A stretch of DNA of 64,000 nucleotides from an uncultured Gammaproteobacteria bacterium (GTDB lineage Bacteria; Patescibacteriota; Microgenomatia; UBA12405): NCBI GenBank assembly GCA_964408995.1, contig CAYPBP010000004.1, positions 16,618 to 80,617 on the forward strand, in the 5' to 3' direction. The first letter of the stretch is position 1, and each line of letters opens with the position of its first letter. Below, piece by piece: positions 45,921 to 61,640 of the stretch. The notes under the pieces were generated by a model that did no database searches, was not told the DNA's origin, and saw only the letters and a program-made list of their open reading frames with translations. The translations under genes were made by a program, and so were the position numbers.

Positions 45921-46432
45921 AATTTTTTTTTAAAAGCAGAAAACTTGGATAAAACTTCAATCTTTTTAGCCTCATTTTCATGATCTTTAATCTGACTTGA
46001 ACTATTAATAATTGATCTAAGGATATAAAAGAAAAACCTAGGAATTTTTCCTTTTATTACATTCTTGGATATTAACTGAAGTGCAGTTTCTGGATTTGAA
46101 GAAATAACAGTTTTTATTAGTTCTTGTTTATCTTTTTCAGAAAGATAAACTTTATTATTTGAATAACTAGGGTGATGATTATTAAGCCAATAAATAATTG
46201 CTGTCATATTTTTATCTTTAATAGCAGATATTAACTGTGATTCGGCGATGTCATTAATAAAAAGGTTGCCATATTTAATGGCTTCATCAGTTTTTTGCTT
46301 AAATTCTTTATTATTAGCGCGCCATCTATAATAACTAGCTCGACTGATATTGGTTATTTCACATGTTATCTGAACGATTGGTGTCTTTTTCAATTGTTCA
46401 ATTAATAGTTTTTTATCCTCATCGATTTTCAT
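45917..46432 (-). CDS. Small HTH-containing protein (IS3-OrfA / phage small-terminase-like SRASYYRW motif)
   Basis: ITCEITNISRASYYRWRANNKEF resembles HTH_Tnp/Psq-type motifs. It lies downstream of the ParB-methyltransferase gene, as in phage packaging modules. Confidence 0.35.
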   Translation of the reverse strand: MKIDEDKKLLIEQLKKTPIVQITCEITNISRASYYRWRANNKEFKQKTDEAIKYGNLFINDIAESQLISAIKDKNMTAIIYWLNNHHPSYSNNKVYLSEKDKQELIKTVISSNPETALQLISKNVIKGKIPRFFFYILRSIINSSSQIKDHENEAKKIEVLSKFSAFKKKL

Positions 46433-47742
46433 ATTTCTTTAGTTTTTGAAAATGATTGATAATTATTGACATATACAACATCATTATTAGTTATTTTTTT
46501 ATATCGAGAAATTATGAGATCACAAAATATTGGTTCAACTTCAGCCATCAGACATTTTCGTTTTAATTGTTCACAGCTACACATAGTTGAACCTGAGCCG
46601 GCAAATAAATCTAAAACTGTGTCTCCAACTCTAGTGCATCTTCTTATGGCTTTTTCGTGGAGAGTAGGACTCTTTTCAGTTGGATGAGTATATTCATTTC
46701 CAGGCAATCTTTTTATTAACCAAATATTTAATAAATCAAGAATATTGTCGATTGTTTGATTACCTGAGCCAATTTCTTTATTCATAATTTCGTTTAGATT
46801 CTTGGGATTTTCAGAAATTGGTGCTTTACCAATTGTTCCATAGACACACGCCTCGTAACTTTTATTAAAGGCAGTATTTGGTGTGGGTGAAAATCCGTTT
46901 TTTATCCATAAGCATACCCGTTTATTTTTTATTCCAATTTCCTTATACAAATCTTGAATTAAACCGATATTACACTCATCACTCCAAAAAAATATATGAC
47001 AATCTAATTTAGAAATAACTAATGCATTTTCAATTGTTTTTTTTAAAAAACTTCTATATTCTTTATCTGTTTTATTATCATTAGTCTTTCCTCCATATGT
47101 TCCCTTACCTCCAATCCCCTTATTATAATCAAGTGAAATGTTAAACGGAGGATCACAATAAACCATAGATACCTCTTTATTTGATGTCAGTTGATTAACA
47201 ACTGACAAGTCGGTACTATCACCACAAATCAACAGATGAGGACCAAGTTGAACAATATCGCCTAATTTAGTTCTTGGTTCCTTAATCTTTTCAATCTCTC
47301 TCTGCGTATCAAAATTATCATCTTCTGTGTCTAAATTTTTGTCCCAAATTTTTGATAAATCGCTATTATCAAAACCAATATTCATCAGCATTTCAACGTC
47401 GAAATTTTTTAATAAATCAAAATTCCACGTGCCAGTATTACGATTTAACCTAAGGTTCAACTCTTTTTCTCTTTCAATGTCTGGAATATTTATATAAATA
47501 ACTGGTATTTCCTTATACCCAAGCTGTTTAGCTATTTCTAGACGAAAATTTCCACCAATTACAATTCCTTGGCGATTCTCAGCAGAATTCACCAAAATTG
47601 GATCAACTATTCCAAAACGTTCAATACTCTCCTTGAGATTGTCTGATTGTTCCTTGCTCCAATGTCTTGGATTGTATTCGGGATTTTTTAAATTATTAAT
47701 ACGAACATTCTCTATCTTTATTTTCTCGTTTTTATCAGTCAT
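46429..47742 (-). CDS. ParB-like nuclease domain fused to an N6-adenine/N4-cytosine DNA methyltransferase (phage-type ParB-MTase)
   Basis: The N-terminus carries ParB motifs (GIVDPILV...VIGGNFRLEIAKQLG). The methyltransferase has motif IV DPPF (VYCDPPFNI) and a C-terminal motif I FAGSGST, the beta-class order. Confidence 0.8.
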   Translation of the reverse strand: MTDKNEKIKIENVRINNLKNPEYNPRHWSKEQSDNLKESIERFGIVDPILVNSAENRQGIVIGGNFRLEIAKQLGYKEIPVIYINIPDIEREKELNLRLNRNTGTWNFDLLKNFDVEMLMNIGFDNSDLSKIWDKNLDTEDDNFDTQREIEKIKEPRTKLGDIVQLGPHLLICGDSTDLSVVNQLTSNKEVSMVYCDPPFNISLDYNKGIGGKGTYGGKTNDNKTDKEYRSFLKKTIENALVISKLDCHIFFWSDECNIGLIQDLYKEIGIKNKRVCLWIKNGFSPTPNTAFNKSYEACVYGTIGKAPISENPKNLNEIMNKEIGSGNQTIDNILDLLNIWLIKRLPGNEYTHPTEKSPTLHEKAIRRCTRVGDTVLDLFAGSGSTMCSCEQLKRKCLMAEVEPIFCDLIISRYKKITNNDVVYVNNYQSFSKTKEI

Positions 47743-48023: not shown

Positions 48024-49448
48024 GTGGCAGAAACTATTAATCTAAATAAAATGATTGATAAATATCAAACAAAAAATCAAATTTTAAAAAAAGCAGAAAC
48101 AATTAAAAATAAATCTTTGCGCGAGGTAATTTCTAATGAAGCAATTAAAAATATTGAAAATCAAATCAGCGGATATGGTTTAAAACGTAAGGGTTTTTTA
48201 GGTGATTTAATAGAAAAATATTTTTTTGATATTAATCCAGGAAATATTAGTAAACCAGATTTTAATGTTGCTGGAGTTGAACTAAAAACTACTCCATTAA
48301 AAAGCCACTCACAAAAACAATATGTATCAAAAGAAAGATTAGTTTTTTCAATGATTAACTATGAATCTATTATTGATGAAAAATGGGAATCAAGTTCTTT
48401 CTTAAAGAAGAATAAATCATTATTATTAATGTTTTATTTGTGGATACAAAATCAAAGTATTCTTGAATATAAATTCAAACTTATTCATTTATTAGATTTA
48501 ATTGATGATATTTCTGATGAAGATAAATTTCAAATTCAAAAAGATTGGGAATACATCGTTGCAAAAATTAAAAGAGGTGAAGCCCATTTATTGTCTGAAG
48601 GTGATACATACTATCTTGGAGCTTCTACAAAAGCCACTAATAGCCAAGCAGTACGTAATCAACCATTAAATAATACGCCAGCAAAACCAAGAGCATTTTC
48701 ACTTAAACAGCAGTATATTAATTATCTTATTCAAACAAAATTACTTGGTAACACAATAAATACTGATTCTATATTCAAAAAACAAAGAAGATTAGAAACA
48801 ATTGAAGACGTAATTAAACAAAAATTCTCATTATTTATTGGAAAAACTGATAAAGAAATTTTAACTAGACTAAATTCTAATTTAGGTAAAAAATCAAAAA
48901 GCTATAAGCGATTAATTGTGAATAAAATTCTTGGAGTAAAATCCAATAAGATTGAGGAATTAGATAAAGCAAATGTAACACTTAGAGTTTTGACCTTGGA
49001 ACATACAGGTAATTTAAGAGAATCAATTTCATTTCCTGCTTTTGACTATAAGGATTTAGTGACACAAGTTTGGTATGACGATATAAAAGAAATAATGTCT
49101 GATTTTCATTTACAACTTGAAACTAAAAAATTTTTATTTGTCGTTTTTCAAAAACAAAAAGGAACAAAAAATATAATTTTAAAGAAAATAATATTTTGGA
49201 ATTTTCCAATGAGTGATATTGGTGAAGCTAAAAATGTGTGGCAAAAAACTGTTAATTGTATTAACGAAAATCGTTACAATGATTTACCAAAAACAAAGGA
49301 CAGTAAAATAGCACATGTACGCCCTCATGGAAAAAACTCTAAAGATACAATAGAAACTCCACAACACACACAAGAAATGAAGCGTTGTTTCTGGTTAAAT
49401 GCTAAATATATACAAAATGCCATAAATAACGATGAAAATGAAGCTTGA
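48024..49448 (+). CDS. Type II restriction endonuclease of the Sau3AI/MutH family (predicted GATC-specific)
   Basis: KGFLGDLIEKYF...KPDFNVAGVELKTTPL matches the MutH/Sau3AI catalytic D-x6-E-x-K block (DFAALGVELKTIP in MutH). The 474-aa two-domain size resembles Sau3AI. The GTG start at 48024 is uncertain; an alternative ATG lies at 48051. Confidence 0.75.
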   Translation: MAETINLNKMIDKYQTKNQILKKAETIKNKSLREVISNEAIKNIENQISGYGLKRKGFLGDLIEKYFFDINPGNISKPDFNVAGVELKTTPLKSHSQKQYVSKERLVFSMINYESIIDEKWESSSFLKKNKSLLLMFYLWIQNQSILEYKFKLIHLLDLIDDISDEDKFQIQKDWEYIVAKIKRGEAHLLSEGDTYYLGASTKATNSQAVRNQPLNNTPAKPRAFSLKQQYINYLIQTKLLGNTINTDSIFKKQRRLETIEDVIKQKFSLFIGKTDKEILTRLNSNLGKKSKSYKRLIVNKILGVKSNKIEELDKANVTLRVLTLEHTGNLRESISFPAFDYKDLVTQVWYDDIKEIMSDFHLQLETKKFLFVVFQKQKGTKNIILKKIIFWNFPMSDIGEAKNVWQKTVNCINENRYNDLPKTKDSKIAHVRPHGKNSKDTIETPQHTQEMKRCFWLNAKYIQNAINNDENEA

Positions 49449-49479
49449 TCAATTTGTTTTTATTTGTTAGAATGGCTTT

Positions 49480-50760
49480 ATGAAAAGAATAAAAGTTGTT
49501 GAATTGTTTGCTGGTGTTGGTGGTTTCCATCTTGGTTTTGAAAGAGCAAATAAAAAACTTCGGTTGAAAAAGAATGAAGGATACGAAATTGTATGGGGAA
49601 ATCAATGGGAACCTTCAACAAAAATACAACATGCTTTTGATGTTTATAAAAATCATTTTGTTAAAGCTATAAATCAATATTCTAATACTGATATACATGA
49701 AGTAGTTGAAAAACATTTTAATAAAATTCCCAAACATAATTTACTTGTTGGTGGATTTCCATGTCAAGATTATTCTGTAGCACGTACATTAACCCAAGCA
49801 AAAGGAATTCAAGGAAAAAAAGGTGTTCTATGGTGGGATATAAAAAACATTTTAGAAAAGTCTGGAGACGATAGTCCAGATTATTTAATGTTAGAAAATG
49901 TGGATAGATTACTTAAATCACCCGTAAAACAAAGAGGTCGTGATTTTGCTATTATGTTGTCTTCTCTGGCAAAACTCGGATACGCTGTTGAGTGGAGAGT
50001 AATTAATGCTGCTGATTATGGAATGCCACAGCGAAGAAGGAGAACTTACATTCTTGGCTATAAAAGAGGAACGGACTTATATTCGAAGTTAAAAGAAAAT
50101 AAAGGAATTAAATGGATTAACGAAAAAGGTGTTTTTGCTAAATCATTTCCAATTATTAATATTAAAAATGAGATAAAACCATTTTTAATAGATAAAGATA
50201 TTTTAAAAATAAATGATAATTTTAATAAGAATTCGAGAAAAACTCCATTTGAAATATCAGGATTAATGATAGACAGAGAAATATACACGACAAAAATAAT
50301 TCCAAATTATAATGGTCAAAAAACAATAATAAAAGATATTCTTGATGATGAAAAAGATGTCCCAAAAGAATTTTATATTGATAAATCTAGTTTACCTATA
50401 TGGAAAAAACTTAAAGGTGCTAAAAATGAAAAAAGGAAAACTAAAGATGGATTTGAATATAATTATAGTGAAGGAGGGATGGTATTTCCAGATAAATTAG
50501 ATGGTCCTTCTAGGACAATAGTTACAGGAGAAGGAGGATCATCCCCTTCTAGGTTTAAACATGTTATTAACATAAATGGAAAAAAAAGAAGATTAACACC
50601 TAACGAACTAGAAGCTTTAAATATGTTTCCAAAAGGTCATACTGCACTAGAGAAATCAGTAGTTAAAAGAGCTTTTTTTATGGGAAATGCACTTGTCGTC
50701 GGGGTGATAACTAGATTAGGAGTAGAACTTTTTAAAGAAATAAATAAAAATAGCGCATAA
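49480..50760 (+). CDS. DNA (cytosine-5)-methyltransferase
   Basis: Motif I ELFAGVGGF, motif IV GGFPCQDYS, the ENV motif (LMLENVDRL), QRRRR and motif X GNALVV. Confidence 0.9.
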   Translation: MKRIKVVELFAGVGGFHLGFERANKKLRLKKNEGYEIVWGNQWEPSTKIQHAFDVYKNHFVKAINQYSNTDIHEVVEKHFNKIPKHNLLVGGFPCQDYSVARTLTQAKGIQGKKGVLWWDIKNILEKSGDDSPDYLMLENVDRLLKSPVKQRGRDFAIMLSSLAKLGYAVEWRVINAADYGMPQRRRRTYILGYKRGTDLYSKLKENKGIKWINEKGVFAKSFPIINIKNEIKPFLIDKDILKINDNFNKNSRKTPFEISGLMIDREIYTTKIIPNYNGQKTIIKDILDDEKDVPKEFYIDKSSLPIWKKLKGAKNEKRKTKDGFEYNYSEGGMVFPDKLDGPSRTIVTGEGGSSPSRFKHVININGKKRRLTPNELEALNMFPKGHTALEKSVVKRAFFMGNALVVGVITRLGVELFKEINKNSA

Positions 50761-50843
50761 TGTTTTTATTCCTAATTTTAATGTTGTAGTTAATCTTATA
50801 TTTTCATGATATCCTTTGTTATTAATAATAATGATTCAAATGT

Positions 50844-52106
50844 ATGAATAAACAACAGAGAATAGATGAATTAATAAAAATAAAAAATGATAATAGTTCA
50901 GTGGTAAAATCGGGAATAACTATAAGATATGATGGTGAGTTTAAAACATTTACAACTCATAAAATACCTTTAGAATGTTTAATTTACAATAAGTACAATG
51001 GAAGGATTGGTGCAGCTATTAAATCCTATGAAAAACAATTCAGAGAATTAGATCCAGAAAATAGTAAAGATAAGGATATAATCATTGATTTTCTTTGGAA
51101 ATCAAAAAAAGACAGAAATGAAAAAACTGAAAGAAGCCTTGCCACAGATCATCAAGTTACCTATGGTGTTGTGACAAAAGACGGAATAATTATTGATGGT
51201 AATAGAAGAGCCATGTTATTAAATAAGATTTATAACGAAAGAGACTTATGGCAAAAACAAGGCATTGATGTAGACCACTGTAAATACTTCGAAGCAATAA
51301 TTCTGGATGAAGAATTTGGAGCTAAAGAAATTATGAAGTTGGAGACAACCCTACAAATGGGTCAAGATGAGAAACTTGATTACAACGCCATTGAAAAATA
51401 TCTAAAATGTAAAGACCTGTTGAGTGTCGGATACAGCGAACAAGATATTTCTACAATGATGAGTGAAAGAATTGGTGAAATAAAAAAATACCAATCAAGG
51501 CTTAAAACAATGGAGAGTTATTTGAATTACTGGTCATATGACGGCTTATATACAATGTTAGACAAGCGAGAAGATCAATTCATAACTTTAAATAAATTTT
51601 TATCAACTTATAAAAATGGTAATGGTGCAGCAGATTGGCCATATCAAGACTTTGATGTTAGTGAACTTGAGCAGATAGCTTACAACTATATTCGTGCAGA
51701 ATATGAAGGTAAAGAGTTTAGAAAATTATTTGAGATATTCAAAAAAGGAGATATTTGGAAAAGGTTTAAAGAACGTTATAATAATGCAACTGAAAACTAC
51801 AAAGAACAATTAGTATCTGAAATAAGAGAAAGTACCCCTGATGAGGATATTTCAGAACAGTTAATAGCAAGAGACACAAAATTTAAAGAAACATTAACTA
51901 AAGAATTTGTAGAAAGCATTATTTGGAGTGACGCCCATCTTCGTGAATCAAAAGAAATTGACAAACCATTTGAGCTATTAACTAAATGTATAAACTATTT
52001 AAATAGCATAGATACTAACAGTGATGGTTTTAGTGAGAGTGGAATATATGAAAAAATTGTGGAAATTAACAAAAAATCTTTTGAACTAAAAAAAATGTTT
52101 GACTAG
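50844..52106 (+). CDS. ParB/Srx-fold domain protein, first gene of the putative defence operon
   Basis: KIPLECLIYNKYNGRIG corresponds to ParB box I (...NPR). VTYGVVTKDGIIIDGNRRAMLL corresponds to ParB box II (GxRR, as in DGQHR/DGQQR of DndB/DUF262). Confidence 0.55.
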   Translation: MNKQQRIDELIKIKNDNSSVVKSGITIRYDGEFKTFTTHKIPLECLIYNKYNGRIGAAIKSYEKQFRELDPENSKDKDIIIDFLWKSKKDRNEKTERSLATDHQVTYGVVTKDGIIIDGNRRAMLLNKIYNERDLWQKQGIDVDHCKYFEAIILDEEFGAKEIMKLETTLQMGQDEKLDYNAIEKYLKCKDLLSVGYSEQDISTMMSERIGEIKKYQSRLKTMESYLNYWSYDGLYTMLDKREDQFITLNKFLSTYKNGNGAADWPYQDFDVSELEQIAYNYIRAEYEGKEFRKLFEIFKKGDIWKRFKERYNNATENYKEQLVSEIRESTPDEDISEQLIARDTKFKETLTKEFVESIIWSDAHLRESKEIDKPFELLTKCINYLNSIDTNSDGFSESGIYEKIVEINKKSFELKKMFD

Positions 52107-52111
52107 AATTT

Positions 52112-54073
52112 ATGAACCAAATTTCATTAGATATTGATAAGAATTCAAGTCAACTAATCATTTCTGAAAAAACACCAAATTTTATTCCAAAAGCTAGATT
52201 GTATTTAGAGAATTATTTATCAGCTTCATTAGATAATAATAAATATTTAATACCATACACAGAAACAAATAAATCAATAACTCTTCAAAAAATATCTGAA
52301 TATATTAAGAGGTTTGGATACGAACCAAGATATTCTGAACAATTAGAATGTGAATTTAACCAAATAATAATAGAGGAAAATAATTTCATTAAATTTTCCG
52401 ATAAAGCTGAAAAAATTAGAAACAATAATATTGTAAGTGATGAATTATCAAATTTTATCTCTGTTTTAGAAAGTAAAATGGTTAGAAAGCCATATAAATT
52501 GCAATTATTATCTTCTTTTCATCTTGCATTTTCACAAAATGCATGTAATTTTTCTGTCCCAGGTGCTGGTAAAACAACAGTAGTTTATGGTGCTCTTACA
52601 TACTTGAAATCGTTACCTGACGAGGATAAAAAACATATTGACAAACTATTAGTGATAGGACCTTTAAGTTCTTTTGGTCCATGGGAACAAGAATATGAAA
52701 AATGTTTCAATAGAAAACCAATATCAAAAAGAATTACAAGTAATTTAAGCAAAGGACAAAAAGATGCTATTTTATTTAATCCAGAAAACATAGAATTAAT
52801 CTTAATATCATATCAAGGAGTTATTTCTTCTCAAAAGAATATAAAGTATTTTCTAAAAAATAATAAAGTAATGGTAGTGTTAGACGAAGCACATAAAATC
52901 AAAAATACTAATAGTGGTTTATGGGCAGAGACAATATTGTCATTATCAGAGTTTTGCAAATCTAGAGTTGTTTTAACTGGAACTCCTGTTCCAAACGGAT
53001 ATCAAGATTTATATAACTTATATAAGTTTATTTGGCCTCAAAACAATGTTCTTGGTTTTAATAAATTTCAATTAAAATCACTTACAACCAGTCCAAACCA
53101 GAATATTATTAAAGAATTAATTTTAAGAGCATCACCATTTTTTATTAGAATAACTAAAAAAGATTTAGGCTTACCAAAACCAATAGAGAATAGTCCTATT
53201 TTTTGCAAGATGGGTCAGCAACAGAAAGAAATATACGATTATATAAATGATATATATATGAAATATTTATCTAAACAAAGTTCAAATAATAATTTTTTTG
53301 CTTCGTTACAAAAAGCAAGAATTATTCGTCTCATGCAACTGGCTACCAATCCAAATTTATTAAAAAAACCACTTGATACATTTTATAGAGAACAAGGAAT
53401 CCCTGATAATATTTATATTGACGATACTGAGATAAAAGAAAAAATCTCAAAATATAGTGAGATTCCTGCAAAGTTTATTACTGTCGGTGAAATTATAATT
53501 AATATTTTGAAAAATAGTAGTGAAAAAGTTATAGTTTGGTCAAACTTTATTCAAAATATTAAAGATTTTCAGCAATATTTGCATACTTTGAATATTAATT
53601 CAAAATTATTATATGGAGATATTCCAGTAGATAAAGATGATGATTTACATGATGAAGAAACTAGAGAATCAATTGTTCGAGAGTTTCATAACCCAAATTC
53701 ATCATTTAGAGTAATAATCGCAAACCCATTTGCGGCATCAGAATCGATTTCGTTACACAAAGCTTGTCATAATGCTATTTATATGGATAGAACTTTTAAT
53801 GCAGCTAATTTTATTCAATCGAAAGATCGCATTCATAGAGTAGGTTTAAATGCAGACGATAAAATTAATTATTATTATATAGTTTCAGAGAACACAATAG
53901 ACCTAAGAATTCATGAGAGATTAATTATAAAAGAAAAAAGGATGTTGGAAATTATAGAAAGTCAAGAAATACCATTATTTAAAGAAAACGATTCAGATAC
54001 AGGTACAATAAATGATATAAAAGCAATATTAAACGAATATGAGTATAAATCTAAAGCAAATCATAAATCTTAG
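52112..54073 (+). CDS. SNF2-family (SF2) helicase/ATPase
   Basis: Walker A GAGKTT, DEAH box VVLDEAHKIKN, motif III LTGTPVPNG and motif VI QSKDRIHRVG. Confidence 0.8.
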   Translation: MNQISLDIDKNSSQLIISEKTPNFIPKARLYLENYLSASLDNNKYLIPYTETNKSITLQKISEYIKRFGYEPRYSEQLECEFNQIIIEENNFIKFSDKAEKIRNNNIVSDELSNFISVLESKMVRKPYKLQLLSSFHLAFSQNACNFSVPGAGKTTVVYGALTYLKSLPDEDKKHIDKLLVIGPLSSFGPWEQEYEKCFNRKPISKRITSNLSKGQKDAILFNPENIELILISYQGVISSQKNIKYFLKNNKVMVVLDEAHKIKNTNSGLWAETILSLSEFCKSRVVLTGTPVPNGYQDLYNLYKFIWPQNNVLGFNKFQLKSLTTSPNQNIIKELILRASPFFIRITKKDLGLPKPIENSPIFCKMGQQQKEIYDYINDIYMKYLSKQSSNNNFFASLQKARIIRLMQLATNPNLLKKPLDTFYREQGIPDNIYIDDTEIKEKISKYSEIPAKFITVGEIIINILKNSSEKVIVWSNFIQNIKDFQQYLHTLNINSKLLYGDIPVDKDDDLHDEETRESIVREFHNPNSSFRVIIANPFAASESISLHKACHNAIYMDRTFNAANFIQSKDRIHRVGLNADDKINYYYIVSENTIDLRIHERLIIKEKRMLEIIESQEIPLFKENDSDTGTINDIKAILNEYEYKSKANHKS

Positions 54074-55055
54074 GTCACTTGGTAATCCAGAATTGACGAA
54101 AAAAATAATCAAAACTGTTTATCATTCAAGTAATCCTTTAAAGTTAAGTGATTTAATAATCATATGCAAATTAAGTGGTTATACATTTATTGATGTGGTT
54201 GAGAATAACATCAATATATTAGACCAATTGGGATTATTAAAAATAAATGGAGAGTTTGTAACGATTGGTAAAATCGAAGTAAAACACAACGAAGTTATTT
54301 ATGGAGATATTATTAAATTATTTTTGGATGAAATAACAAATATGGGGAAGTTGTTCGATATATTTAAACCAGAAGGAATATTTTTTGATAATAAATCTCA
54401 ACTCATAGGAATAAAACAAAATTATTTATCATTGAAACATTCTCAAATTAGAGATTTTTTAATTAATTTTGGTTTTTACTCTTCTAACATTGACAAATAT
54501 GATTATTTTATTGACAAGAAGTATGAAGATTACTTCAAAAACATTGTTAGTCTTTCAAAAAAAAAGGAGATTGCGAAAATTAATAAAAAAAATTTTACAT
54601 TAGAACAGTTAAACAGAATATTAGATATTAGAAATGAAATGGGTATGGAAGGTGAAAAAATTGCACTAGAATTTGAATTACTACGATTAGTTGGACATTC
54701 CTTAATCCAGGATATAAAAATTATTTCCGATATAAGTGTTAATAGAGGATATGACATTGTGTCTTTTGATGGACCAGAATCAAAAGAAATAGATAGATAT
54801 ATAGAAGTAAAGTCGTATAGAAATCAACCTAGATTTTTTTGGAGTGAAAATGAGGTCAGAACAGCTGAAAGATTAAGTGAAAAATACTATATATATTTGG
54901 TTAATTTAAGTGATAATAACCATGGAAATAATATTATTATAATCAAAGACCCATTTAAGCACGTATTTGAATCAGTAAACTGGAAAATATCTACAAGTAC
55001 TTGGGAAGTTAATAAAATTAATAATAAATATATTCAACAAACTAATGAATTTTAA
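54039..55055 (+). CDS. DUF3883-like (PD-(D/E)xK-type) domain protein
   Basis: The C-terminus GEKIALEFELLRLVGH...NRGYDIVSFDG...RYIEVKSY...FWSENEVRTAE...YYIYLV matches the DUF3883 pattern as I recall it. It overlaps the SNF2 gene by 35 nt in another frame. Confidence 0.6.
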   Translation: MSINLKQIINLRSLGNPELTKKIIKTVYHSSNPLKLSDLIIICKLSGYTFIDVVENNINILDQLGLLKINGEFVTIGKIEVKHNEVIYGDIIKLFLDEITNMGKLFDIFKPEGIFFDNKSQLIGIKQNYLSLKHSQIRDFLINFGFYSSNIDKYDYFIDKKYEDYFKNIVSLSKKKEIAKINKKNFTLEQLNRILDIRNEMGMEGEKIALEFELLRLVGHSLIQDIKIISDISVNRGYDIVSFDGPESKEIDRYIEVKSYRNQPRFFWSENEVRTAERLSEKYYIYLVNLSDNNHGNNIIIIKDPFKHVFESVNWKISTSTWEVNKINNKYIQQTNEF

Positions 55056-55092
55056 TAAAACTTTTTTTATCTGAATATCTAAATCAAAAAAA

Positions 55093-56619
55093 ATGAACAT
55101 TACCGCTTCAAAACTTTATAATTACATTCAATGTGAACATCGAATTTGGAGAGATATTTATGGCCCACAAGATGAAAAATCTAAGGATACAAATCCTTTT
55201 GTCCAAATGCTTTGGGATAAAGGTGTAGCTCATGAAGAAAACATTGTTGAAGGTTTAGGTCAGATTCTTAATTTAAAAGATGTCGGTACAGAAGAAGAAA
55301 AAATTCAAAAAACTATTGATGCAATGAAAATGGGTGTACCCCTTATTTACCAAGGAGTACTAAGAAATGGTGACTTGTTAGGTATCCCAGATTTACTACA
55401 AAATAATGGCGATGGAACATATTTACCTATCGATATTAAAAGTGGAATGGGAATAGAAGGTGTTGATGAAGAAAATGATAATGATGGAAAATATAAAAAG
55501 CATTATGCTGTTCAATTAGCACTTTATGTTGAAGTATTAATTGCAAATGGGTTTGCTAAAGAACATAAAGGAATGATTATTGATATTGATTCGGAAAAAG
55601 TAATTTATGACCTTGATCAAGAAATGGGGGCTAGAAATCCAATAACTTGGTGGCAGTATTATCAAGAAATAAAACTAAAGGCTACTAGTTTATTGCTAAA
55701 CGAAACTCAAAACAAACCAGCATATTCTGGTAAATGTAAACTATGTCCTTGGTATAAAAGTTGTAAAGATTGGATAAATAAAAAACATGATCCAAGTGCA
55801 ATTTTCTATGTAGGTCGGGCAATGAGAGATACTTTATTTAAAGATTTAGAAATAGAAAGTTATGAAGATATTATTAATATTGATGTTGAACAAGCACTAG
55901 AAAAAAAGAATAAAGAAAAAGGGTTTTTGTATCGAATTGGCAAAGACAGCTTAGAAAAATGCATTAAAAGAGCAAATGTAACAAATAATATTAAAAAACC
56001 AGTTGTTTATATTACCCCCGTCTTTCCAAAAACTTCTTACGAATTATTTTTTGATATTGAAGATGATCCAACTCAGTCTTTTATTTATTTACATGGTGTA
56101 TATGAAAGATCTCCAAAAGAAGAAAGATATGTTTCGTTTGTAGCTGAAGAAAAAACAGGTGCTTCCGAAAAAGAAGCTTGGCTTAATTTTTGGATTTATA
56201 TTAGATCATTACCTAAAGACGATTTTACTGTTTACTATTATTCTCACCACGAAAAAACAACTTACAAAAAAATGAGTCAAAAATATCCTGGGGTAGTAAG
56301 TGATGAAGAGTTAGAATGGTTTTTTAGTCCTGGAAAAGCGGTTGATTTATATTCTGATGTTATTCTAAAAAATACGGATTGGCCTCTAATGAGTTATTCA
56401 CTGAAAGATATTGCTCAATATTTAGACTTTAGTTGGAGAGACAAATCCCCTTCAGGTGCTATGTCAATCGAATGGTTTAATAAATATTTAGAAACTAAGG
56501 ATAAAAAAGATATGGATAGAATTTTGCTTTATAATGAAGATGATTGTAAAGCCACTATGGTTATTAAAGATTTTTTGATATTTCAAGCGATTAAGGAAAA
56601 TAATTATGAAAACAATTAA
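55093..56619 (+). CDS. Cas4/RecB-like Fe-S PD-(D/E)xK nuclease fused to an RNase-H-like (PolB-type) 3'-5' exonuclease domain (TM0106/YprB-like)
   Basis: An N-terminal Cys (YIQCEHRIW), then PIDIKSG (DxK), QLALYVEVL (QxxxY) and the C-terminal triad CKLCPWYKSC. The C-terminus FFDIEDDPTQSFIYLHGV resembles an Exo I motif. Confidence 0.6.
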   Translation: MNITASKLYNYIQCEHRIWRDIYGPQDEKSKDTNPFVQMLWDKGVAHEENIVEGLGQILNLKDVGTEEEKIQKTIDAMKMGVPLIYQGVLRNGDLLGIPDLLQNNGDGTYLPIDIKSGMGIEGVDEENDNDGKYKKHYAVQLALYVEVLIANGFAKEHKGMIIDIDSEKVIYDLDQEMGARNPITWWQYYQEIKLKATSLLLNETQNKPAYSGKCKLCPWYKSCKDWINKKHDPSAIFYVGRAMRDTLFKDLEIESYEDIINIDVEQALEKKNKEKGFLYRIGKDSLEKCIKRANVTNNIKKPVVYITPVFPKTSYELFFDIEDDPTQSFIYLHGVYERSPKEERYVSFVAEEKTGASEKEAWLNFWIYIRSLPKDDFTVYYYSHHEKTTYKKMSQKYPGVVSDEELEWFFSPGKAVDLYSDVILKNTDWPLMSYSLKDIAQYLDFSWRDKSPSGAMSIEWFNKYLETKDKKDMDRILLYNEDDCKATMVIKDFLIFQAIKENNYENN

Positions 56620-57859
56620 AGTATCAATACAAGATGTAAACACACTATTACTTCTAGAGGATGGTCAAAAAGGAGACATAATTGATCTTAAGTCTATTCA
56701 TGATACAGATATTGATAAAACAACAATTGATAATCTTATAAAAGAAATCAGGAACGATGAGTTTAATACACAATTAGAGTCGGCAAAACGGAATATTGAA
56801 AAAGAAAAGTCTCTTGAAGCAGAAATCAAAGAGAAGGATATTATAAATAAAGCTAAAGAGGCACTTACAAAGAAAGATCAGGAAATCATAGCTCTCAACA
56901 TAAAAGTCGAAAACATCGCAAAGCAGGTTGAATCGGATGCTAAGATCAAAGCCCTGGAAGAGAAAAAATATTTAGAGGATGAGTATAGACAAAAAATATC
57001 CGAAAAGGATACCGAGGTTCAAGAAATTAAACATCAAAAAGAACTAAGCGATCAAAAATATCAAGATCAACTCAAAGCAAGCGAAACTGCTTTAGTTTCA
57101 CTAAAAGAAATGCGCTCCAGAATGAGCACTAAGATGATTGGTGAATCATTAGAGACTCACTGTGAGAATGAATTTAATAAACTTCGACCACTTGCCTTTC
57201 CTAATGCTAAATTTAATAAAGATAATCAGATATCGGACTCTGGATCTAAAGGTGATTATGTTTATCGAGAGTCAGACGATGATGGCAACGAAATTCTATC
57301 AATTATGTTTGAAATGAAAAATGAAGATAATGCAACTACTACTAAGAAAAAGAATAAGGACTTTTTCAAAGAATTGGACAAAGACCGACGTGAGAAAAAC
57401 TGTGAATATGCGGTTTTGGTTAGCCTTCTTGAAAAAGATAATGAATACTATGACGATATAGTTAATGTCTCTGATTATCCCAACATGTATTCTATCCGAC
57501 CTCAACATTTTATAACTATAATTGGCTTTTTGCGCCAAGGTAATCTAAAATCCCAAGAATTGAGAAAAACTATTTTTATTCTTAAGAATCAAAATATCGA
57601 TGTAACTAATTTTGAGGCTAATATGAATGCATTTAAAGATGCCTTTGATAGAAACTATAATTTAGCTTCAGAACAATTTAGTGACGCTATTAAAGAAATC
57701 GACATTACTATTAAGCACCTTAATAAAGTGAGGGAGAACTTACTTAAATCTGATAACAACCTAAGGCTAGCCAACAGTAAAACATCAGAATTAACAATAA
57801 AAAAATTAACGGCTAATAGTCCGAGTGTTGCCAAGGCATTTGAGGATAATACTAAATAG
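56606..57859 (+). CDS. Coiled-coil protein with a C-terminal PD-(D/E)xK-like region (DUF2130/RmuC-like)
   Basis: A long coiled coil followed by GESLE...F...KGDYVYRE...ILSIMFEMKNE (D...ExK). The overall pattern is as in DUF2130/RmuC. It overlaps the upstream gene by 14 nt. Confidence 0.5.
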   Translation: MKTIKVSIQDVNTLLLLEDGQKGDIIDLKSIHDTDIDKTTIDNLIKEIRNDEFNTQLESAKRNIEKEKSLEAEIKEKDIINKAKEALTKKDQEIIALNIKVENIAKQVESDAKIKALEEKKYLEDEYRQKISEKDTEVQEIKHQKELSDQKYQDQLKASETALVSLKEMRSRMSTKMIGESLETHCENEFNKLRPLAFPNAKFNKDNQISDSGSKGDYVYRESDDDGNEILSIMFEMKNEDNATTTKKKNKDFFKELDKDRREKNCEYAVLVSLLEKDNEYYDDIVNVSDYPNMYSIRPQHFITIIGFLRQGNLKSQELRKTIFILKNQNIDVTNFEANMNAFKDAFDRNYNLASEQFSDAIKEIDITIKHLNKVRENLLKSDNNLRLANSKTSELTIKKLTANSPSVAKAFEDNTK

Positions 57860-58032: not shown

Positions 58033-59850
58033 GTGGCACAAATATATCCAGACATAAAAAATATTAATAAGTTAAAGGTCCGACCTACTTCAGGAGAATG
58101 TCAACTTTTAAATTTTTTAATAAAAAATCTTTCTAATGATTTTGAGGTATATTTTCAACCTTATATTAACGGAGATAGACCAGATATAGTTATTGTAAAA
58201 AAGAATTCAGGAGTTTTAATTATTGAAGTTAAAGATTGGAATTTGGGTAGTTACGAAATTGATAGTAATAAAAATTGGTATTTAAAGAAAATACAAAATA
58301 ATAGAGGACAAAAACAGATTATTAAATCACCCATATCTCAGGTTAAAGAATATAAAAATAATCTTTACAATCTACATATTGAAAATTTATTAGAAAGAAA
58401 GATAAATGACCCAAAATATTTTTCAATTGTTAATTGTGCTGTGTATTTTAGTAATGCTACCAAAAATGAAATTAATATTTTTTTTGAAAAAGAATTTAAA
58501 ACAGAAAATCAAGATCTGAAATATATTGATTTATTAGGAAAAGATGATTTAACTTTAGAAAAATTTAATAAAGTTTTATCAAAACGTCGATTAAACACAA
58601 AATCACATTTATTTGATGAAGAATTATATAACAGTTTTAAAAGGTTTTTCCAACCTCCAATTCACACTTTGGAGGAAGGAACTGAAATTAAATATTCTCC
58701 AAAACAAACTGAATTATCACAAAGCATGGTGGTTCAACAAAAAATTAAAGGTTTTGCTGGAAGTGGAAAAACTATACTTCTTGCCAAAAGAGCAGTTAAT
58801 TCCCATAAAAGAACCTCTTCAAAAGTCTTGATTTTAACCTACAATATAAGTCTTAAGAATTATATACACGATAAAATAAGTGATGTAAGGGAAGAATTTG
58901 AATGGAAATATTTTAATATTTCTAATTATCATCAATTTATTAATTCTGAAACAAATAACTTAAACATTTGTATTAAAAAACTTGAATCTTATGAAGACTT
59001 AAATTTATTTAATGGTTATGAAAATCAAATAGAAAAATATAAAACTATATTAATAGATGAAGTACAAGATTACAGAACACAATGGATACAAATACTGAAG
59101 AAATATTTTCTTGATGAAGATGGAGAGTTTGTAGTTTTTGGAGACGAAAAACAAAATATTTATAAAAGAATTTTAGATCAAGACAAAAAACCAAATACTA
59201 CTATTCCAGGTAGATGGATTGAGTTAAAAGAGTCTTTTAGACTAAGCGAAAAAATAATACATTTATCAACTAGATTTCAAAAATATTTCTTTAAAGAAAA
59301 ATATGATCTGGATGTAACCGAAAACATTGAACAGCATACTTTATTTTCTGAAGAGAATATAAAACATTATTTTTTCAAAAAAAAAGAATTATTACCAATA
59401 ATTAGCCAAATATCAAAAATAATAAAAGAAAAGAAAATCCATCCTAATAATATTTGTTTTCTTTCATCTAAAAAAGAAATATTAAGAGATATTGATTTTG
59501 AAATAAGAAACTCTTTTAAAGAACACACTAAAACAACGTTTGCAACAAAAGAAAGGTTTGAATCTCTAAAAAAAGAAAATGATATTAATTTTAAAAAAGT
59601 ATTAAAAGGTATTGATAAAAACAAGAAATTTAATTTTTGGATGAATGATGGAACAATGAAATTATCAACAATACATAGCTTTAAAGGATGGGAAATACCA
59701 ACACTATTCTTAATTATAAATAATAATGATGATGTTGATGAATTAATTTACACTGCTATAACAAGATGTAGATACAATTTGTTCATTATCAATATTGGAA
59801 ATCAAAAATATTATGATTTTTTTGAAAAAAATAAAGATTTGTTAAATTAA
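58033..59850 (+). CDS. NERD-domain nuclease fused to an SF1 (UvrD/AAA_19-like) helicase
   Basis: The N-terminus GECQLLNFL...GDRPDIVIVKKNSGVLIIEVKDW is a NERD domain. It has Walker A GFAGSGKT, Walker B ILIDEVQDY and a C-terminal UvrD_C-like GWEIPTLFLI. Confidence 0.7.
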   Translation: MAQIYPDIKNINKLKVRPTSGECQLLNFLIKNLSNDFEVYFQPYINGDRPDIVIVKKNSGVLIIEVKDWNLGSYEIDSNKNWYLKKIQNNRGQKQIIKSPISQVKEYKNNLYNLHIENLLERKINDPKYFSIVNCAVYFSNATKNEINIFFEKEFKTENQDLKYIDLLGKDDLTLEKFNKVLSKRRLNTKSHLFDEELYNSFKRFFQPPIHTLEEGTEIKYSPKQTELSQSMVVQQKIKGFAGSGKTILLAKRAVNSHKRTSSKVLILTYNISLKNYIHDKISDVREEFEWKYFNISNYHQFINSETNNLNICIKKLESYEDLNLFNGYENQIEKYKTILIDEVQDYRTQWIQILKKYFLDEDGEFVVFGDEKQNIYKRILDQDKKPNTTIPGRWIELKESFRLSEKIIHLSTRFQKYFFKEKYDLDVTENIEQHTLFSEENIKHYFFKKKELLPIISQISKIIKEKKIHPNNICFLSSKKEILRDIDFEIRNSFKEHTKTTFATKERFESLKKENDINFKKVLKGIDKNKKFNFWMNDGTMKLSTIHSFKGWEIPTLFLIINNNDDVDELIYTAITRCRYNLFIINIGNQKYYDFFEKNKDLLN

Positions 59851-59897: not shown

Positions 59898-61640
59898 ATG
59901 GTAAAAAGGATAATTAATAAAATTATGTCTAAGTTAAAAATAATAATAATCTTATTTTCTTTAGTATTGATAAGTGTGTTTTTACTATTATTCCCTGCTT
60001 TTTATTTTAATAAGCTTGAATTTCAAATGAAATCAATTTATTCATCAATAGAATCTGTTAAAGGGGCATCTTTTGATAATGTTGAGCAAAGAAGTGGTCG
60101 AGAAGGAGGTCTAAAATCAAACGAAGAATATGAATATTATTCTGGTCTAATTAATGAGAATTTAAATAAAATGGATTCTCTTATTAATGACCATCAGAAT
60201 CTATTAGAAAAACAAGCTAAGATTACTTTTCTTTTGCCACCAAAATATAAAAAATACTACGGTCTTAAAAAGGAAGCCTTTGATAAGTATTATTTATCAT
60301 TAAGAGATTATAAAAAAGTCAAAGAATCTGAGAGTATTTTTTATTATGTATTAACAGAGCAAATCAAGTTCTCTAGTTTCATGAGAGATACTAGTGGTGG
60401 TAAAGATATAAGTATAGATTCTTTAAAAGAAGTAATTAACAAACTTCAAAAACTACAAATAAGTATTAAAGAAAATTTTGAAAAAGGTCTTTTAACTGAA
60501 AATTTTAATGATAAAGTGCCTAAAAAAATAAGTGTTTTTATTAGTGTTTACAATGTCGTGTTAGATTGGAAAGAAAAATTAGTTACAGATGATGAATTTT
60601 GGAATAAAATACTAAAAATAATAGACAACGATAATAATAACAAAGGTTATGATGTAGTAGAAATTATTTATGACTCAAGAATTAAAATTACTGATGTTAA
60701 AGGAAAAGAATGGATAAATCTTTATGACACATCAATAGAATTATCAAATAAAGCATCAGAATATTATTATAGTAATAAACTTTCTGATGATAATTTAAGT
60801 AAAATACTGTCAATTTATAATAAAAATTATCCTGAAAATAAAGAAAATAAAAACGATACAAAAATAGAAGAAAAATATATTGATTTAAACGGTGATGGTC
60901 AACAAGAAGTCCTACAGATAACAAGTAAAAATAGTAATGAAGCATATCCAGAGCTTATTTTGATTGCTTTTGATAAAAACAAGAAAGAAATTGGTAGATT
61001 ACCAGATAATTTTCCTGCCATAGATATACCTTTATCTAATACAGCCAGAGTATATACTCCAATTAAAAAAGATAAAAAACAATTTGTAAGTCTTGAATTT
61101 ATTCTTGGACCACATTCATCAGAGACCATGTTTTTTGGTTTATTCAAGTCGAAAGATGGAAATATGGGTATCATTCCAGTATGTTTAACTGATGATGTTG
61201 AAGATGCTAGAGATTGTTTATTTTGGTCTGGTGAAGTTGGTGATTTATGGGCTGATGATTATGATAAAGATGGGGTATTGGAAGTAGTGGAAATGGTTGA
61301 TGAATATCCAAAAGATGGACCATTAACTGATGAAATTAAAAATATCACCAATGAAACATTTGGAAAATTAGGCCAAAAAGCTAGTGATGGTGCTTTAAGG
61401 GTTTTAAAAAGAGAACAAGGTGGTAGAGGAAATAAGGTTATTTGGGCAATCTATAAATATAATGACAAATATTTTGAGAAACAATTAGGAAAAGATTACG
61501 ATAAATATTATGTTTTAGCGAAAGATCAGATTAGTAGTCTGTGGACTAAATATCCAAAAATAATTAAAAAGAGTGAGATAAGTAAAGATTCGTTGGAATA
61601 CAATGAATTTTTAAGAAACTATTGGCATGGAAATATGTAA
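59898..61640 (+). CDS. Membrane-anchored hypothetical protein whose 5' leader and N-terminus resemble 61694 and 41876
   Basis: One TM helix then a large low-complexity extracytoplasmic region. The 5' 46 nt are about 83% identical to IR-R. Confidence 0.45.
   Translation: MVKRIINKIMSKLKIIIILFSLVLISVFLLLFPAFYFNKLEFQMKSIYSSIESVKGASFDNVEQRSGREGGLKSNEEYEYYSGLINENLNKMDSLINDHQNLLEKQAKITFLLPPKYKKYYGLKKEAFDKYYLSLRDYKKVKESESIFYYVLTEQIKFSSFMRDTSGGKDISIDSLKEVINKLQKLQISIKENFEKGLLTENFNDKVPKKISVFISVYNVVLDWKEKLVTDDEFWNKILKIIDNDNNNKGYDVVEIIYDSRIKITDVKGKEWINLYDTSIELSNKASEYYYSNKLSDDNLSKILSIYNKNYPENKENKNDTKIEEKYIDLNGDGQQEVLQITSKNSNEAYPELILIAFDKNKKEIGRLPDNFPAIDIPLSNTARVYTPIKKDKKQFVSLEFILGPHSSETMFFGLFKSKDGNMGIIPVCLTDDVEDARDCLFWSGEVGDLWADDYDKDGVLEVVEMVDEYPKDGPLTDEIKNITNETFGKLGQKASDGALRVLKREQGGRGNKVIWAIYKYNDKYFEKQLGKDYDKYYVLAKDQISSLWTKYPKIIKKSEISKDSLEYNEFLRNYWHGNM

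What the first reader, a model, noticed from the sequence alone, without database searches (positions are those of the whole stretch)
50844..57859. Five-gene operon (ParB-like, SNF2 helicase, DUF3883-like, Cas4/RecB-exonuclease fusion, DUF2130/RmuC-like): candidate undescribed multi-nuclease defence system
Five co-directional genes are packed with overlaps or gaps of at most 40 nt: 50844-52106, 52112-54073, 54039-55055, 55093-56619 and 56606-57859. Together they combine a ParB/Srx-fold protein (the DGNRR box II motif family used by DndB/DUF262 defence proteins), an SNF2 ATPase, and three different predicted PD-(D/E)xK-type nuclease modules. One of the nucleases is a Cas4-like Fe-S nuclease fused to a PolB-type 3'-5' exonuclease. 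The operon lies inside a recombinase-bearing island, directly next to a restriction-modification pair. It does not match the gene content of the helicase-containing systems I compared it with. DISARM would need DrmA/B/C (DUF1998, PLD). Dpd would need the TGT-like DpdA. Druantia and Hachiman have different partners. It is therefore a plausible novel defence module, but this is inference from domain architecture only.
Basis: partly seen in the sequence, partly recalled or inferred. Interest (0 to 1): 0.85.

Follow-up and report, generated by a model that had tools for sequence, protein, structure and literature searches.

The report
Cytosine methylase with ParB–SNF2–nuclease trio
The five genes are real but are not one system: the first three (a ParB-like protein, an SNF2 motor and a DUF3883 nuclease) always travel with a cytosine-5 DNA methylase across many phyla, which looks like an undescribed restriction-modification-like defence cassette, while the last two genes are unrelated neighbours.

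Summary
All five ORFs sit at the stated coordinates, and every domain call holds up. SNF2, DUF3883/NOV_C, TM0106 (Cas4-like plus RNase_H_2) and DUF2130 were confirmed by profile searches. The ParB/Srx assignment was confirmed only by predicted structure. In 80 genomes from at least 13 phyla, including archaea, the ParB-like gene is followed by the SNF2 and DUF3883 genes in 68 of 68 loci with enough sequence. A cytosine-5 DNA methylase is adjacent in 79 of 80. Homologues of genes 4 and 5 occur in 0 of 80. The conserved unit is therefore C5 methylase + ParB-like + SNF2 + wHTH-DUF3883 nuclease. The trio has no system-level match in PADLOC or NCBIfam, and the ParB-like protein has no hit in any library. 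No paper describing the cassette was found. The most likely function is an ATP-dependent, methylation-gated restriction system; this is inferred, not tested. Gene 5 (DUF2130) is a highly conserved stand-alone gene that recurs beside unrelated R-M systems. Gene 4 is a known family (TIGR03491) without conserved linkage.

The parts
48024..49448 (+). Sau3AI-family type II restriction endonuclease (MutH-like fold). It is the optional REase component of this 'class C' version of the cassette.
   Evidence: NCBIfam NF040973, 417.6 bits (cutoff 300). Pfam MutH. PADLOC REase_II, 244 bits. The same REase+MTase pair flanks the trio in L017, L073, L082, L083 and, inverted, L084. The public gene call starts 27 nt later.
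49480..50760 (+). Cytosine-5 DNA methyltransferase, close to the MTases paired with Sau3AI-like REases. It is the modification component and the universally linked partner of the trio.
   Evidence: PF00145, 196.7 bits. TIGR00675, 217.7 bits. PADLOC MTase_II, 539 bits. A C5 MTase is adjacent to the trio in 79/80 loci; the exception is a 2.4-kb contig.
50844..52106 (+). ParB/Srx-fold N-domain plus HTH plus helical C-terminal region. Box II-like DGNRR lies at 118-122 and a Box III-like LETxxQ...DYNxIEKY at 166-186.
52112..54073 (+). SNF2-family ATPase (predicted dsDNA translocase) with an uncharacterised N-terminal region of about 145 aa.
   Evidence: PF00176, 96.7 bits, and PF00271. Walker A GAGKT 151-155, DEAH 258-261, motif VI QSKDRIHRVG 569-578. 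Directly follows gene 1 in 68/68 testable loci. The top 120 homologues are all 618-673 aa and carry only generic names such as 'DEAD/DEAH box helicase'.
54039..55055 (+). Winged-helix N-terminal region, long helix, then a DUF3883/NOV_C PD-(D/E)xK nuclease domain. This is the predicted effector nuclease.
55093..56619 (+). TM0106-family protein: Cas4-like Fe-S PD-(D/E)xK nuclease fused to an RNase_H_2 (PolB-exonuclease-like) domain. It is an adjacent gene, NOT part of the conserved cassette.
   Evidence: TIGR03491, 224.4 bits (cutoff 97.45). PF13482, 90.7 bits. C14/C215/C218/C224 and D114-I-K116. Homologues in 0/80 trio loci. In other loci this slot holds AspBHI_N-Mrr/HNH enzymes.
56606..57859 (+). 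DUF2130 protein: coiled-coil N-terminus plus PD-(D/E)xK-type C-terminal domain. It is an adjacent, highly conserved stand-alone gene, NOT part of the conserved cassette.
   Evidence: PF09903, 245.9 bits. 80 relatives at 65-88% identity, with no trio and only one with TM0106 upstream. No conserved partner. Neighbours are often unrelated R-M genes.

Best explanation
Bases 48024-55055 hold one copy of a widespread, horizontally mobile cassette. Its invariant core has four genes. They are a cytosine-5 DNA methyltransferase, a ParB/Srx-fold DNA-binding protein, an SNF2 ATPase and a winged-helix/DUF3883 PD-(D/E)xK nuclease. Here, as in a minority of genomes, the methylase brings its own Sau3AI-type endonuclease.

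The most likely function is an ATP-dependent, methylation-gated restriction (R-M-like) defence system. The proposed steps are:
1. The methylase marks host DNA with 5mC (shown only as domain identity).
2. The ParB-like protein binds DNA through its HTH. It acts as an NTP-gated clamp or loader (inferred from fold and motifs).
3. It recruits the SNF2 motor, which translocates on dsDNA (inferred from family).
4. The wHTH-DUF3883 subunit nicks or cuts DNA that lacks the mark. This is inferred from intact catalytic residues and from the nickase activity of the same domain in HmaA.

Genes 4 (TM0106 nuclease) and 5 (DUF2130) are separate genes of the same defence or mobile island. They are not subunits.
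For: - Composition: gene 1 is followed by gene 2 and gene 3 in 68/68 loci with at least 4.4 kb of sequence. A C5 MTase is adjacent in 79/80.
- Coupling: in 51 loci the MTase ORF ends within -60 to +100 nt of the gene 1 start. In most of these the stop overlaps or abuts the start.
- Fusions: the MTase C-terminal domain is fused in frame to the ParB-like protein in P0025, P0164 and L002 (hhalign prob 99.9 and 98.9).
- Partner swaps: the trio keeps a C5 MTase through at least three swaps. Class A is a 550-aa MTase with no REase, in 50 loci. Class B has a BanI-like REase, in 19 loci. Class C is Sau3AI-like.
- Rearrangement: in L084 the Sau3AI-like R+M pair is inverted and lies on the other side, yet stays adjacent.
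- Mobility: the cassette occurs in Bacillota, Bacteroidota, Actinomycetota, Pseudomonadota, Spirochaetota, Saccharibacteria, Omnitrophota, Methanolobus and other groups. The tree does not follow taxonomy.
- Mobile context: it sits in a T4SS element (L082) and at a prophage edge (Javan191). In the window it lies beside a serine recombinase in a low-GC region.
- Defence neighbours: Vsr, type IV AspBHI-like enzymes, RT and SocA/Panacea.
- Active sites are intact.
- Precedent: SNF2 + NOV_C (HmaA) protects against T4 and needs the NOV_C nickase (PMC11232893).
Against: - No experiment exists for any member. Defence is inferred from context.
- It is unexplained how one trio could read the methylation status set by three unrelated MTase lineages with presumably different specificities.
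- Classes B and C already have a complete type II R-M system, so the trio's extra role there is unclear.
- Promoter and terminator scans are uninformative in this AT-rich DNA.
- The ParB assignment rests on a predicted structure. Gene 1 has GNRR where canonical ParB has GERR (the latter from memory), so NTP hydrolysis may be absent.
- No full-length copy was found among 72,556 plasmids.
Confidence: 0.6

Rival explanations
1. The trio is an accessory or back-up module of C5-type type II R-M systems, not a methylation reader itself. One version has it load at breaks or nicks made by the REase and destroy the cut DNA, as a RecBCD-independent degradation step. Another has it fire when the R-M system is inhibited.
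For: Classes B and C carry a bona fide type II REase next to the trio: BanI/DpnII-like, or the Sau3AI family at 418 bits. The R+M pair and the trio stay together after rearrangement. ParB-like clamps and SNF2 motors need no sequence specificity of their own, which would explain compatibility with different MTases.
Against: The commonest and apparently ancestral class A (50 loci) has no recognisable REase. Its MTase C-terminal domain shows no similarity to the class B REase (hhalign prob 0.4). It also has no Pfam or PDB match.
Confidence: 0.2
2. The cassette is an offensive or establishment module of mobile elements, a counter-restriction device like the DarB-type methylase-SNF2 dyad. It would methylate the element's own incoming DNA with help from the SNF2 motor and the ParB-like protein. 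The nuclease would target rival elements.
For: Methylase-SNF2 pairs and ParB-superfamily enzymes are recurrent in phage and conjugative-element early-entry proteins (PMC5512222). The cassette lies in an ICE (L082) and at a prophage end (Javan191). A ParB_N-MTase fusion of phage/ICE type is 3 kb upstream in the window.
Against: The described dyads use adenine methylases fused into giant polyvalent proteins. Here the genes are separate, the methylase is C5, and a REase-fold nuclease with intact catalytic residues is always present. Vsr and type II REases accompany the cassette, as in resident R-M systems. Genes 1 and 3 have no PHROG match. No full-length copy is on PLSDB plasmids.
Confidence: 0.08
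3. The five genes 50844-57859 form one multi-nuclease defence system.
For: Spacing is tight and the genes are co-directional, with no + strand terminator-like site between genes 3, 4 and 5. All five have nucleic-acid-related domains. A TM0106-DUF2130 pair also follows another SNF2+MTase system in L088.
Against: Homologues of genes 4 and 5 are in 0/80 trio loci. They are also absent from the closest relatives, which share 52% identity in gene 1. Close gene 5 relatives lack the trio in 80/80 loci and lack gene 4 in 79/80.
Confidence: 0.04
4. The trio is a modification-dependent (type IV-like) restriction module. It would attack foreign modified cytosines, and the linked methylase would serve another role.
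For: The winged-helix plus PD-(D/E)xK architecture and the ATP-dependent motor recall type IV enzymes. 5mC-dependent AspBHI-like genes often sit next to the cassette.
Against: Obligate linkage to an active-looking C5 methylase (79/80) would be self-destructive for a 5mC-dependent enzyme. No SRA, EVE, YTH or DUF3427-type reader domain was detected.
Confidence: 0.06

Closest known systems
Hma system (HmaA-HmaB-HmaC); HmaA is SNF2 with a C-terminal NOV_C/DUF3883 nickase
   Same: Both combine an SNF2 ATPase, a DUF3883 PD-(D/E)xK nuclease and a DNA methylase in one locus. HmaA alone protects E. coli from T4 and needs the NOV_C catalytic residues D, ExK and E (PMC11232893). The equivalent residues D239, E256, K258 and E272 are invariant here.
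   Different: Here SNF2 and DUF3883 are separate proteins, and the nuclease has its own winged-helix N-terminus. The methylase is a classical C5 enzyme, not DUF1156. There is no DUF499 ATPase. A ParB-like protein is an obligate extra component. No PADLOC Hma model hit gene 2 or gene 3. None of the top 120 gene 2 homologues carries a fused NOV_C.
DISARM, especially class 2 with the DrmMII C5 methylase
   Same: Both are multi-gene, methylation-based defence systems pairing a C5 methylase with SF2 helicase(s) and a nuclease. Gene 2 gives weak partial hits to DrmD.
   Different: There is no DrmA/DrmB (DUF1998), no DrmC (PLD) and no DrmE. The DrmD hits are 45-47 bits against NCBIfam cutoffs of 610-950.
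Type III and Type ISP restriction-modification (Res: SF2 motor plus PD-(D/E)xK; Mod: methylase)
   Same: The logic is the same: a methylase plus an ATP-driven motor and a REase-fold nuclease acting on unmodified DNA.
   Different: The methylase is C5 rather than N6/N4. The motor is SNF2-type and separate from the nuclease. There is an extra ParB-like subunit. A separate type II REase is present in some classes.
Dpd system (DpdB ParB-like ATPase, DpdE SNF2-like helicase)
   Same: A ParB-superfamily protein and an SNF2-like helicase co-occur in a DNA-modification-based defence island (PMC12839542). Gene 2 gives weak DpdE hits.
   Different: There is no DpdA (TGT), no DpdC and no 7-deazaguanine pathway. 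DpdE scores 16.8 bits against a cutoff of 500. The modification here is 5mC.
Canonical ParB/Noc/KorB CTP-dependent DNA clamps
   Same: Gene 1's predicted N-domain and HTH superpose on them. It has a Box II-like GxRR and a Box III-like ExxxQ...NxIE motif.
   Different: There is no sequence-level match to Pfam ParB_N. It has GNRR instead of GERR and a different, all-helical C-terminal half. There is no ParA partner. It is embedded in an R-M-like operon.
PD-T4-1 (single-gene DUF3883 defence protein) and Tiamat TmtA
   Same: They share the C-terminal DUF3883 domain. PADLOC PD-T4-1 scores 70 bits over gene 3 residues 152-303, and TmtA scores 49 bits.
   Different: The match covers only the nuclease domain. 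The N-terminal parts and the gene context differ.

Membership tests
Type II R-M, Sau3AI family (genes 48024-50760) | The REase passes the curated Sau3AI-family model, and a C5 MTase lies adjacent. | tested here: met
   NF040973, 417.6 bits against a cutoff of 300. PF00145, 196.7 bits. TIGR00675, 217.7 bits against a cutoff of 100.65.
ParB/Srx superfamily (gene 1) | ParB/Srx N-terminal fold with a GxxR-type motif. | tested here: met
ParB/Srx superfamily (gene 1) | Sequence match to Pfam ParB_N (PF02195) or DUF262/GmrSD_N/DndB. | tested here: not met
   Gene 1 has no Pfam, NCBIfam or PADLOC hit. In the same search, the ParB-MTase at 46429-47742 does hit PF02195.
ParB CTPase clamps | CTP binding and hydrolysis, and clamp closure. 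| not testable with these tools
   Only motif resemblance is available (GNRR 119-122; LETxxQ...NAIEKY 166-186).
Hma | HmaA (SNF2 fused to NOV_C) plus HmaB (DUF1156 MTase) plus HmaC (DUF499 ATPase). | tested here: not met
   SNF2 and NOV_C are separate genes. No Hma model hit in PADLOC. No DUF1156 or DUF499 in the window ORFs scanned.
DISARM | DrmA plus DrmB (DUF1998) plus DrmC (PLD), with DrmD/DrmMI or DrmE/DrmMII. | tested here: not met
   Only partial DrmD/DrmA hits to the SNF2 core, at most 47 bits against cutoffs of 610-950. No DUF1998 or PLD protein in the operon.
Zorya (ZorD) | ZorA/ZorB motor proteins plus ZorC/ZorD; ZorD passes its model. | tested here: not met
   The best PADLOC hit is ZorD at 96 bits, covering only the helicase core. 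NCBIfam ZorD scores 56 bits against a cutoff of 1500. No ZorABC.
Dpd | DpdA (TGT-like), DpdB and DpdC. | tested here: not met
   DpdE scores 16.8 bits against a cutoff of 500. No TGT-like protein.
TM0106 family RecB-like nuclease (gene 4) | Passes TIGR03491; Cas4-type 4-Cys cluster plus RNase_H_2 domain. | tested here: met
   224.4 bits against a cutoff of 97.45. PF13482, 90.7 bits. C14/C215/C218/C224.
DUF2130 (gene 5) | Passes PF09903. | tested here: met
   245.9 bits against a cutoff of 26.7.
Proposed cassette (C5 MTase + ParB-like + SNF2 + wHTH-DUF3883) | All four genes are adjacent, with genes 1, 2 and 3 in that order on one strand. | tested here: met
   Window 49480-55055. 68/68 and 79/80 in other genomes.
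Proposed cassette (C5 MTase + ParB-like + SNF2 + wHTH-DUF3883) | Protects against phage or foreign DNA in a methylation-dependent way. | not testable with these tools
   No experiment is available, and no paper was found.

The most novel reading that the evidence does not exclude
A new class of epigenetic immune system in which a ParB-type, NTP-gated DNA clamp is the surveillance subunit. It would load on DNA, couple physically to a C5 methylase through the methylase's uncharacterised C-terminal domain, and license an SNF2 motor and a DUF3883 nuclease to destroy DNA lacking 5mC. This would be the first use of the ParB clamp principle in restriction. It would also be a prokaryotic precedent for the C5-methylase-SNF2 partnership seen in eukaryotes (DNMT5, DDM1/HELLS).
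Probability: 0.25. Interest if true: 0.8.

Novelty: new variant of a known kind. Interest (0 to 1): 0.62.

Why it matters
If it is confirmed as a defence system, three things follow.
- It would add a widespread four-gene R-M-like system that current defence annotators miss. It occurs in about 220 of 185,579 species representatives and spans bacteria and archaea.
- It would give the ParB/Srx clamp fold a role in immunity.
- It would assign a function to a family of roughly 1,800 'hypothetical' proteins.

The finding also corrects the annotation logic for this locus. The methylase and endonuclease belong with the trio, while TM0106 and DUF2130 do not.

Separately, the recurrent placement of DUF2130 beside unrelated R-M systems is a lead on an uncharacterised, highly conserved PD-(D/E)xK protein.

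Tried and rejected
- **Named systems.** Pfam, NCBIfam, PADLOC and PHROGs scans of all five proteins and their neighbours found no named multi-gene system.
- **DNA and protein similarity.** Megablast of the region against plasmids gave nothing. tblastn of gene 1 against plasmids gave only half-length paralogues at about 30% identity. Against phages there was one full-length hit, at a prophage edge.
- **Gene 1 against PDB.** A profile search by sequence found nothing meaningful, so the ParB assignment needed a structure prediction.
- **MTase C-terminal domain.** I tested whether the class A MTase C-terminal domain is a hidden REase. It has no Pfam or PDB hit and no profile similarity to the class B REase.
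- **Split HmaA.** I tested whether gene 2 is a split HmaA. None of the top 120 homologues has a fused NOV_C.
- **Partner of DUF2130.** I looked for a conserved partner. There is none; the best cluster is in 14/80 loci.
- **Operon boundaries.** Promoter-like sites equal the shuffled expectation, so boundaries cannot be read from the sequence.
- **Literature.** Seven full-text searches and targeted reading of nine papers found no description of the cassette. One search was wasted on 'NOVC', which matches a Vibrio acronym. Makarova et al. 2011 is not held.
- **Source organism.** It could not be named. The only look-ups returned a Logan assembly of run SRR8925755, with no accession or name recorded for the NCBI copy.

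Full report
**Observation.** They are co-directional, with junctions of +5, -35, +37 and -14 nt. Profile searches confirm four of the five domain calls.
- Gene 2 is an SNF2 ATPase (PF00176, 96.7 bits, plus Helicase_C).
- Gene 3 carries NOV_C/DUF3883 (56.1 bits).
- Gene 4 is a full-length member of the TM0106 RecB-like family (TIGR03491, 224 bits against a cutoff of 97). It combines a Cas4-like PD-(D/E)xK domain with an RNase_H_2 (PolB-exonuclease-like) domain.
- Gene 5 is DUF2130 (246 bits).

Motif positions were read from the sequence. Gene 2 has GAGKT at 151-155 and DEAH at 258-261. Gene 4 has C14, C215, C218, C224 and D114-x-K116.

The upstream pair is a Sau3AI-family REase (417.6 bits, cutoff 300) and a C5 methylase. 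A large serine recombinase lies at 41912-43240. Bases 1-40 kb encode GroEL, IleRS, enolase and other housekeeping proteins, so the region from about 41.4 kb onward is an island in a bacterial chromosome. Its G+C content is lower than that of the core.

**What is conserved.** Gene 1 belongs to a family of 1784 detectable proteins, all unnamed or generically named. At 50% identity this is 289 clusters with E<=1e-30.

A scan of one genome per GTDB species found 221 loci, and 80 were fetched. They come from Bacillota, Bacteroidota, Actinomycetota, Pseudomonadota, Campylobacterota, Spirochaetota, Chloroflexota, Acidobacteriota, Caldisericota, Melainabacteria, Saccharibacteria, Omnitrophota and the archaeon Methanolobus.

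tblastn with the window proteins and an unbiased all-against-all clustering of ORFs in these loci gave three results.
- Genes 2 and 3 follow gene 1 in every locus with enough sequence, 68 of 68.
- Homologues of genes 4 and 5 occur in none of the 80.
- A fourth family is present in 79 of 80 loci, and it is a C5 DNA methyltransferase. The single exception is a 2.4-kb contig.

The two closest relatives (52% identity in gene 1) were looked up, giving three loci, which tell the same story. L082 and L083 read Sau3AI-like REase, C5 MTase, gene 1, SNF2, NOV_C, then an AspBHI_N-Mrr enzyme, inside a T4SS element. L084 has the trio followed by the inverted MTase and REase.

Conversely, 80 close relatives of gene 5 (65-88% identity) carry the trio in 0 loci and gene 4 in 1. 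Gene 5 has no conserved partner. The five-gene unit is therefore rejected. The conserved unit is methylase + ParB-like + SNF2 + DUF3883 nuclease.

**Anatomy of the cassette.** The methylases fall into three unrelated lineages.
- Class A (50 loci) is a protein of about 550 aa with a C-terminal domain of about 180 aa. In most cases its stop codon overlaps or abuts the gene 1 start, and no REase is present.
- Class B (19 loci) is a methylase of about 484 aa with a BanI/DpnII-like REase directly upstream of gene 1.
- Class C (the window, L004, L017, L073, L082-L084) is the Sau3AI-like R+M pair.

On a neighbour-joining tree of gene 2, class A is paraphyletic and widespread, class B is one clade, and class C appears more than once. 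The trio has therefore kept a C5 methylase through several partner exchanges.

The class A C-terminal domain has no Pfam or PDB sequence match. It is unrelated to the class B REase. It is fused in frame to the ParB-like protein in P0025, P0164 and L002. That is Rosetta-stone-type support for a physical link between methylase and gene 1, although loss of a stop codon between overlapping genes could also produce such fusions.

**Function.** Several lines point to a methylation-based restriction system.
- Linkage to a C5 methylase is obligate.
- Vsr is frequently present (21 loci).
- Type II REases are present in some classes, and type IV 5mC-dependent enzymes are often adjacent.
- The cassette sits in ICE and prophage contexts.
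- Its distribution is patchy and crosses domains.

The closest tested precedent is HmaA, an SNF2 ATPase fused to NOV_C. It protects E. coli from T4 and needs the NOV_C nickase residues (PMC11232893).

I therefore propose the following. The methylase marks self DNA. The ParB-like protein binds or clamps DNA and couples to the methylase. The SNF2 motor translocates. The wHTH-DUF3883 subunit cuts unmarked DNA.

Only the composition and the intact motifs are shown; every mechanistic step is inferred. The main difficulty is how one trio reads marks written by three different methylase lineages.

Four rivals remain.
- The trio is an accessory of type II R-M systems that processes REase-made breaks. 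This is weakened because class A has no REase.
- It is a mobile-element counter-restriction module like the DarB methylase-SNF2 dyad (PMC5512222). This is weakened by the always-present nuclease and the C5 chemistry.
- It is a type IV-like enzyme. This is hard to reconcile with an obligate C5 methylase.
- It is the original five-gene system. This is rejected as a conserved unit.

**Comparison with known systems.** PADLOC-DB v2 gives only partial helicase-core hits for gene 2: ZorD 96 bits, DrmD 47, DpdE 39. For gene 3 it gives nuclease-domain hits: PD-T4-1 70 bits, TmtA 49. Gene 1 has none.

NCBIfam equivalogs score far below cutoff: ZorD 56 against 1500, DrmD 45 against 610-950, DpdE 17 against 500. 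NCBI names the gene 2 homologues only 'DEAD/DEAH box helicase'. Membership in Hma, DISARM, Zorya and Dpd was tested and not met.

Full-text searches and reading of the most relevant comparative-genomics papers found no description of this cassette. The library lacks most subscription journals, so prior description cannot be excluded.

**Genes 4 and 5.** Gene 4 is an ordinary member of TIGR03491. Its slot downstream of gene 3 holds other nucleases elsewhere.

Gene 5 is unusually conserved for an island gene. Its close homologues lie next to HsdR, EcoRI-type methylases, GmrSD-HNH, a split SNF2/Type ISP-like pair and a Sau3AI-like R-M pair. It is either the anchor of an insertion hotspot or a general R-M-associated factor. 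No functional study of it was found in the literature.

**Verdict.** It is best classed as a new variant of the known kind 'methylase plus ATP-dependent motor plus nuclease', with an unprecedented ParB-like subunit.

Noticed in passing
window 56606-57859; L085, L088, L100, L131, L150: Close homologues of the DUF2130 gene (65-88% identity) sit beside unrelated R-M or defence genes. These include HsdR (8 loci), EcoRI-type MTase (8), GmrSD_N-HNH (14), PIF1-WYL (5), a split SNF2/Type ISP-like pair with TM0106, and a Sau3AI-like R-M pair. The gene is either a hotspot anchor or a generic R-M-associated PD-(D/E)xK factor. No functional study of it was found in the literature.
   Followed up: partly
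L001-L080 class A loci, e.g. L009:8392-10011; P0025, P0164, L002:9080-11299: C5 methylases of the commonest cassette class carry a C-terminal domain of about 180 aa (motif KYHIPY..RVELTN..W..IH.SQG). It has no Pfam or PDB match. In three cases it is fused in frame to the ParB-like protein.
   Followed up: partly
window 46429-47742 (-), 45917-46432 (-), 41912-43240 (-): A ParB_N plus N6/N4-methylase fusion of the phage/ICE type lies next to a weak small-terminase-like ORF and a large serine recombinase. The island may be a degraded prophage or integrative element.
   Followed up: no
window 58033-59850: A NERD nuclease plus UvrD-like helicase protein matches the PADLOC candidate family C3a187 (200 bits). 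It is followed by two ORFs with no family match (59898-61640 and 62938-63915) and a SIMPL/DUF541 protein. The defence-island character continues to the window end.
   Followed up: no
L082:14174-15391, L009:14245-15294 and four other loci: 5mC-dependent AspBHI_N-Mrr/HNH type IV enzymes occupy the slot directly downstream of the DUF3883 gene, next to an active-looking C5 methylase. Their target contexts must be mutually compatible.
   Followed up: no
window, whole; 48024-55055: GATC, the Sau3AI site, is under-represented. Over the window there are 123 observed against 184 expected (second-order Markov). Within the cassette there are 6 against 17.7. GTAC is similarly low, so the signal is weak.
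   Followed up: partly
plasmid hits H1-H25 (e.g. LN906635.1 85029-85652): Half-length paralogues of the ParB-like protein (residues about 21-229, 29-35% identity) are common on Enterococcus and Lactobacillaceae plasmids, where they are annotated as hypothetical.
   Followed up: no
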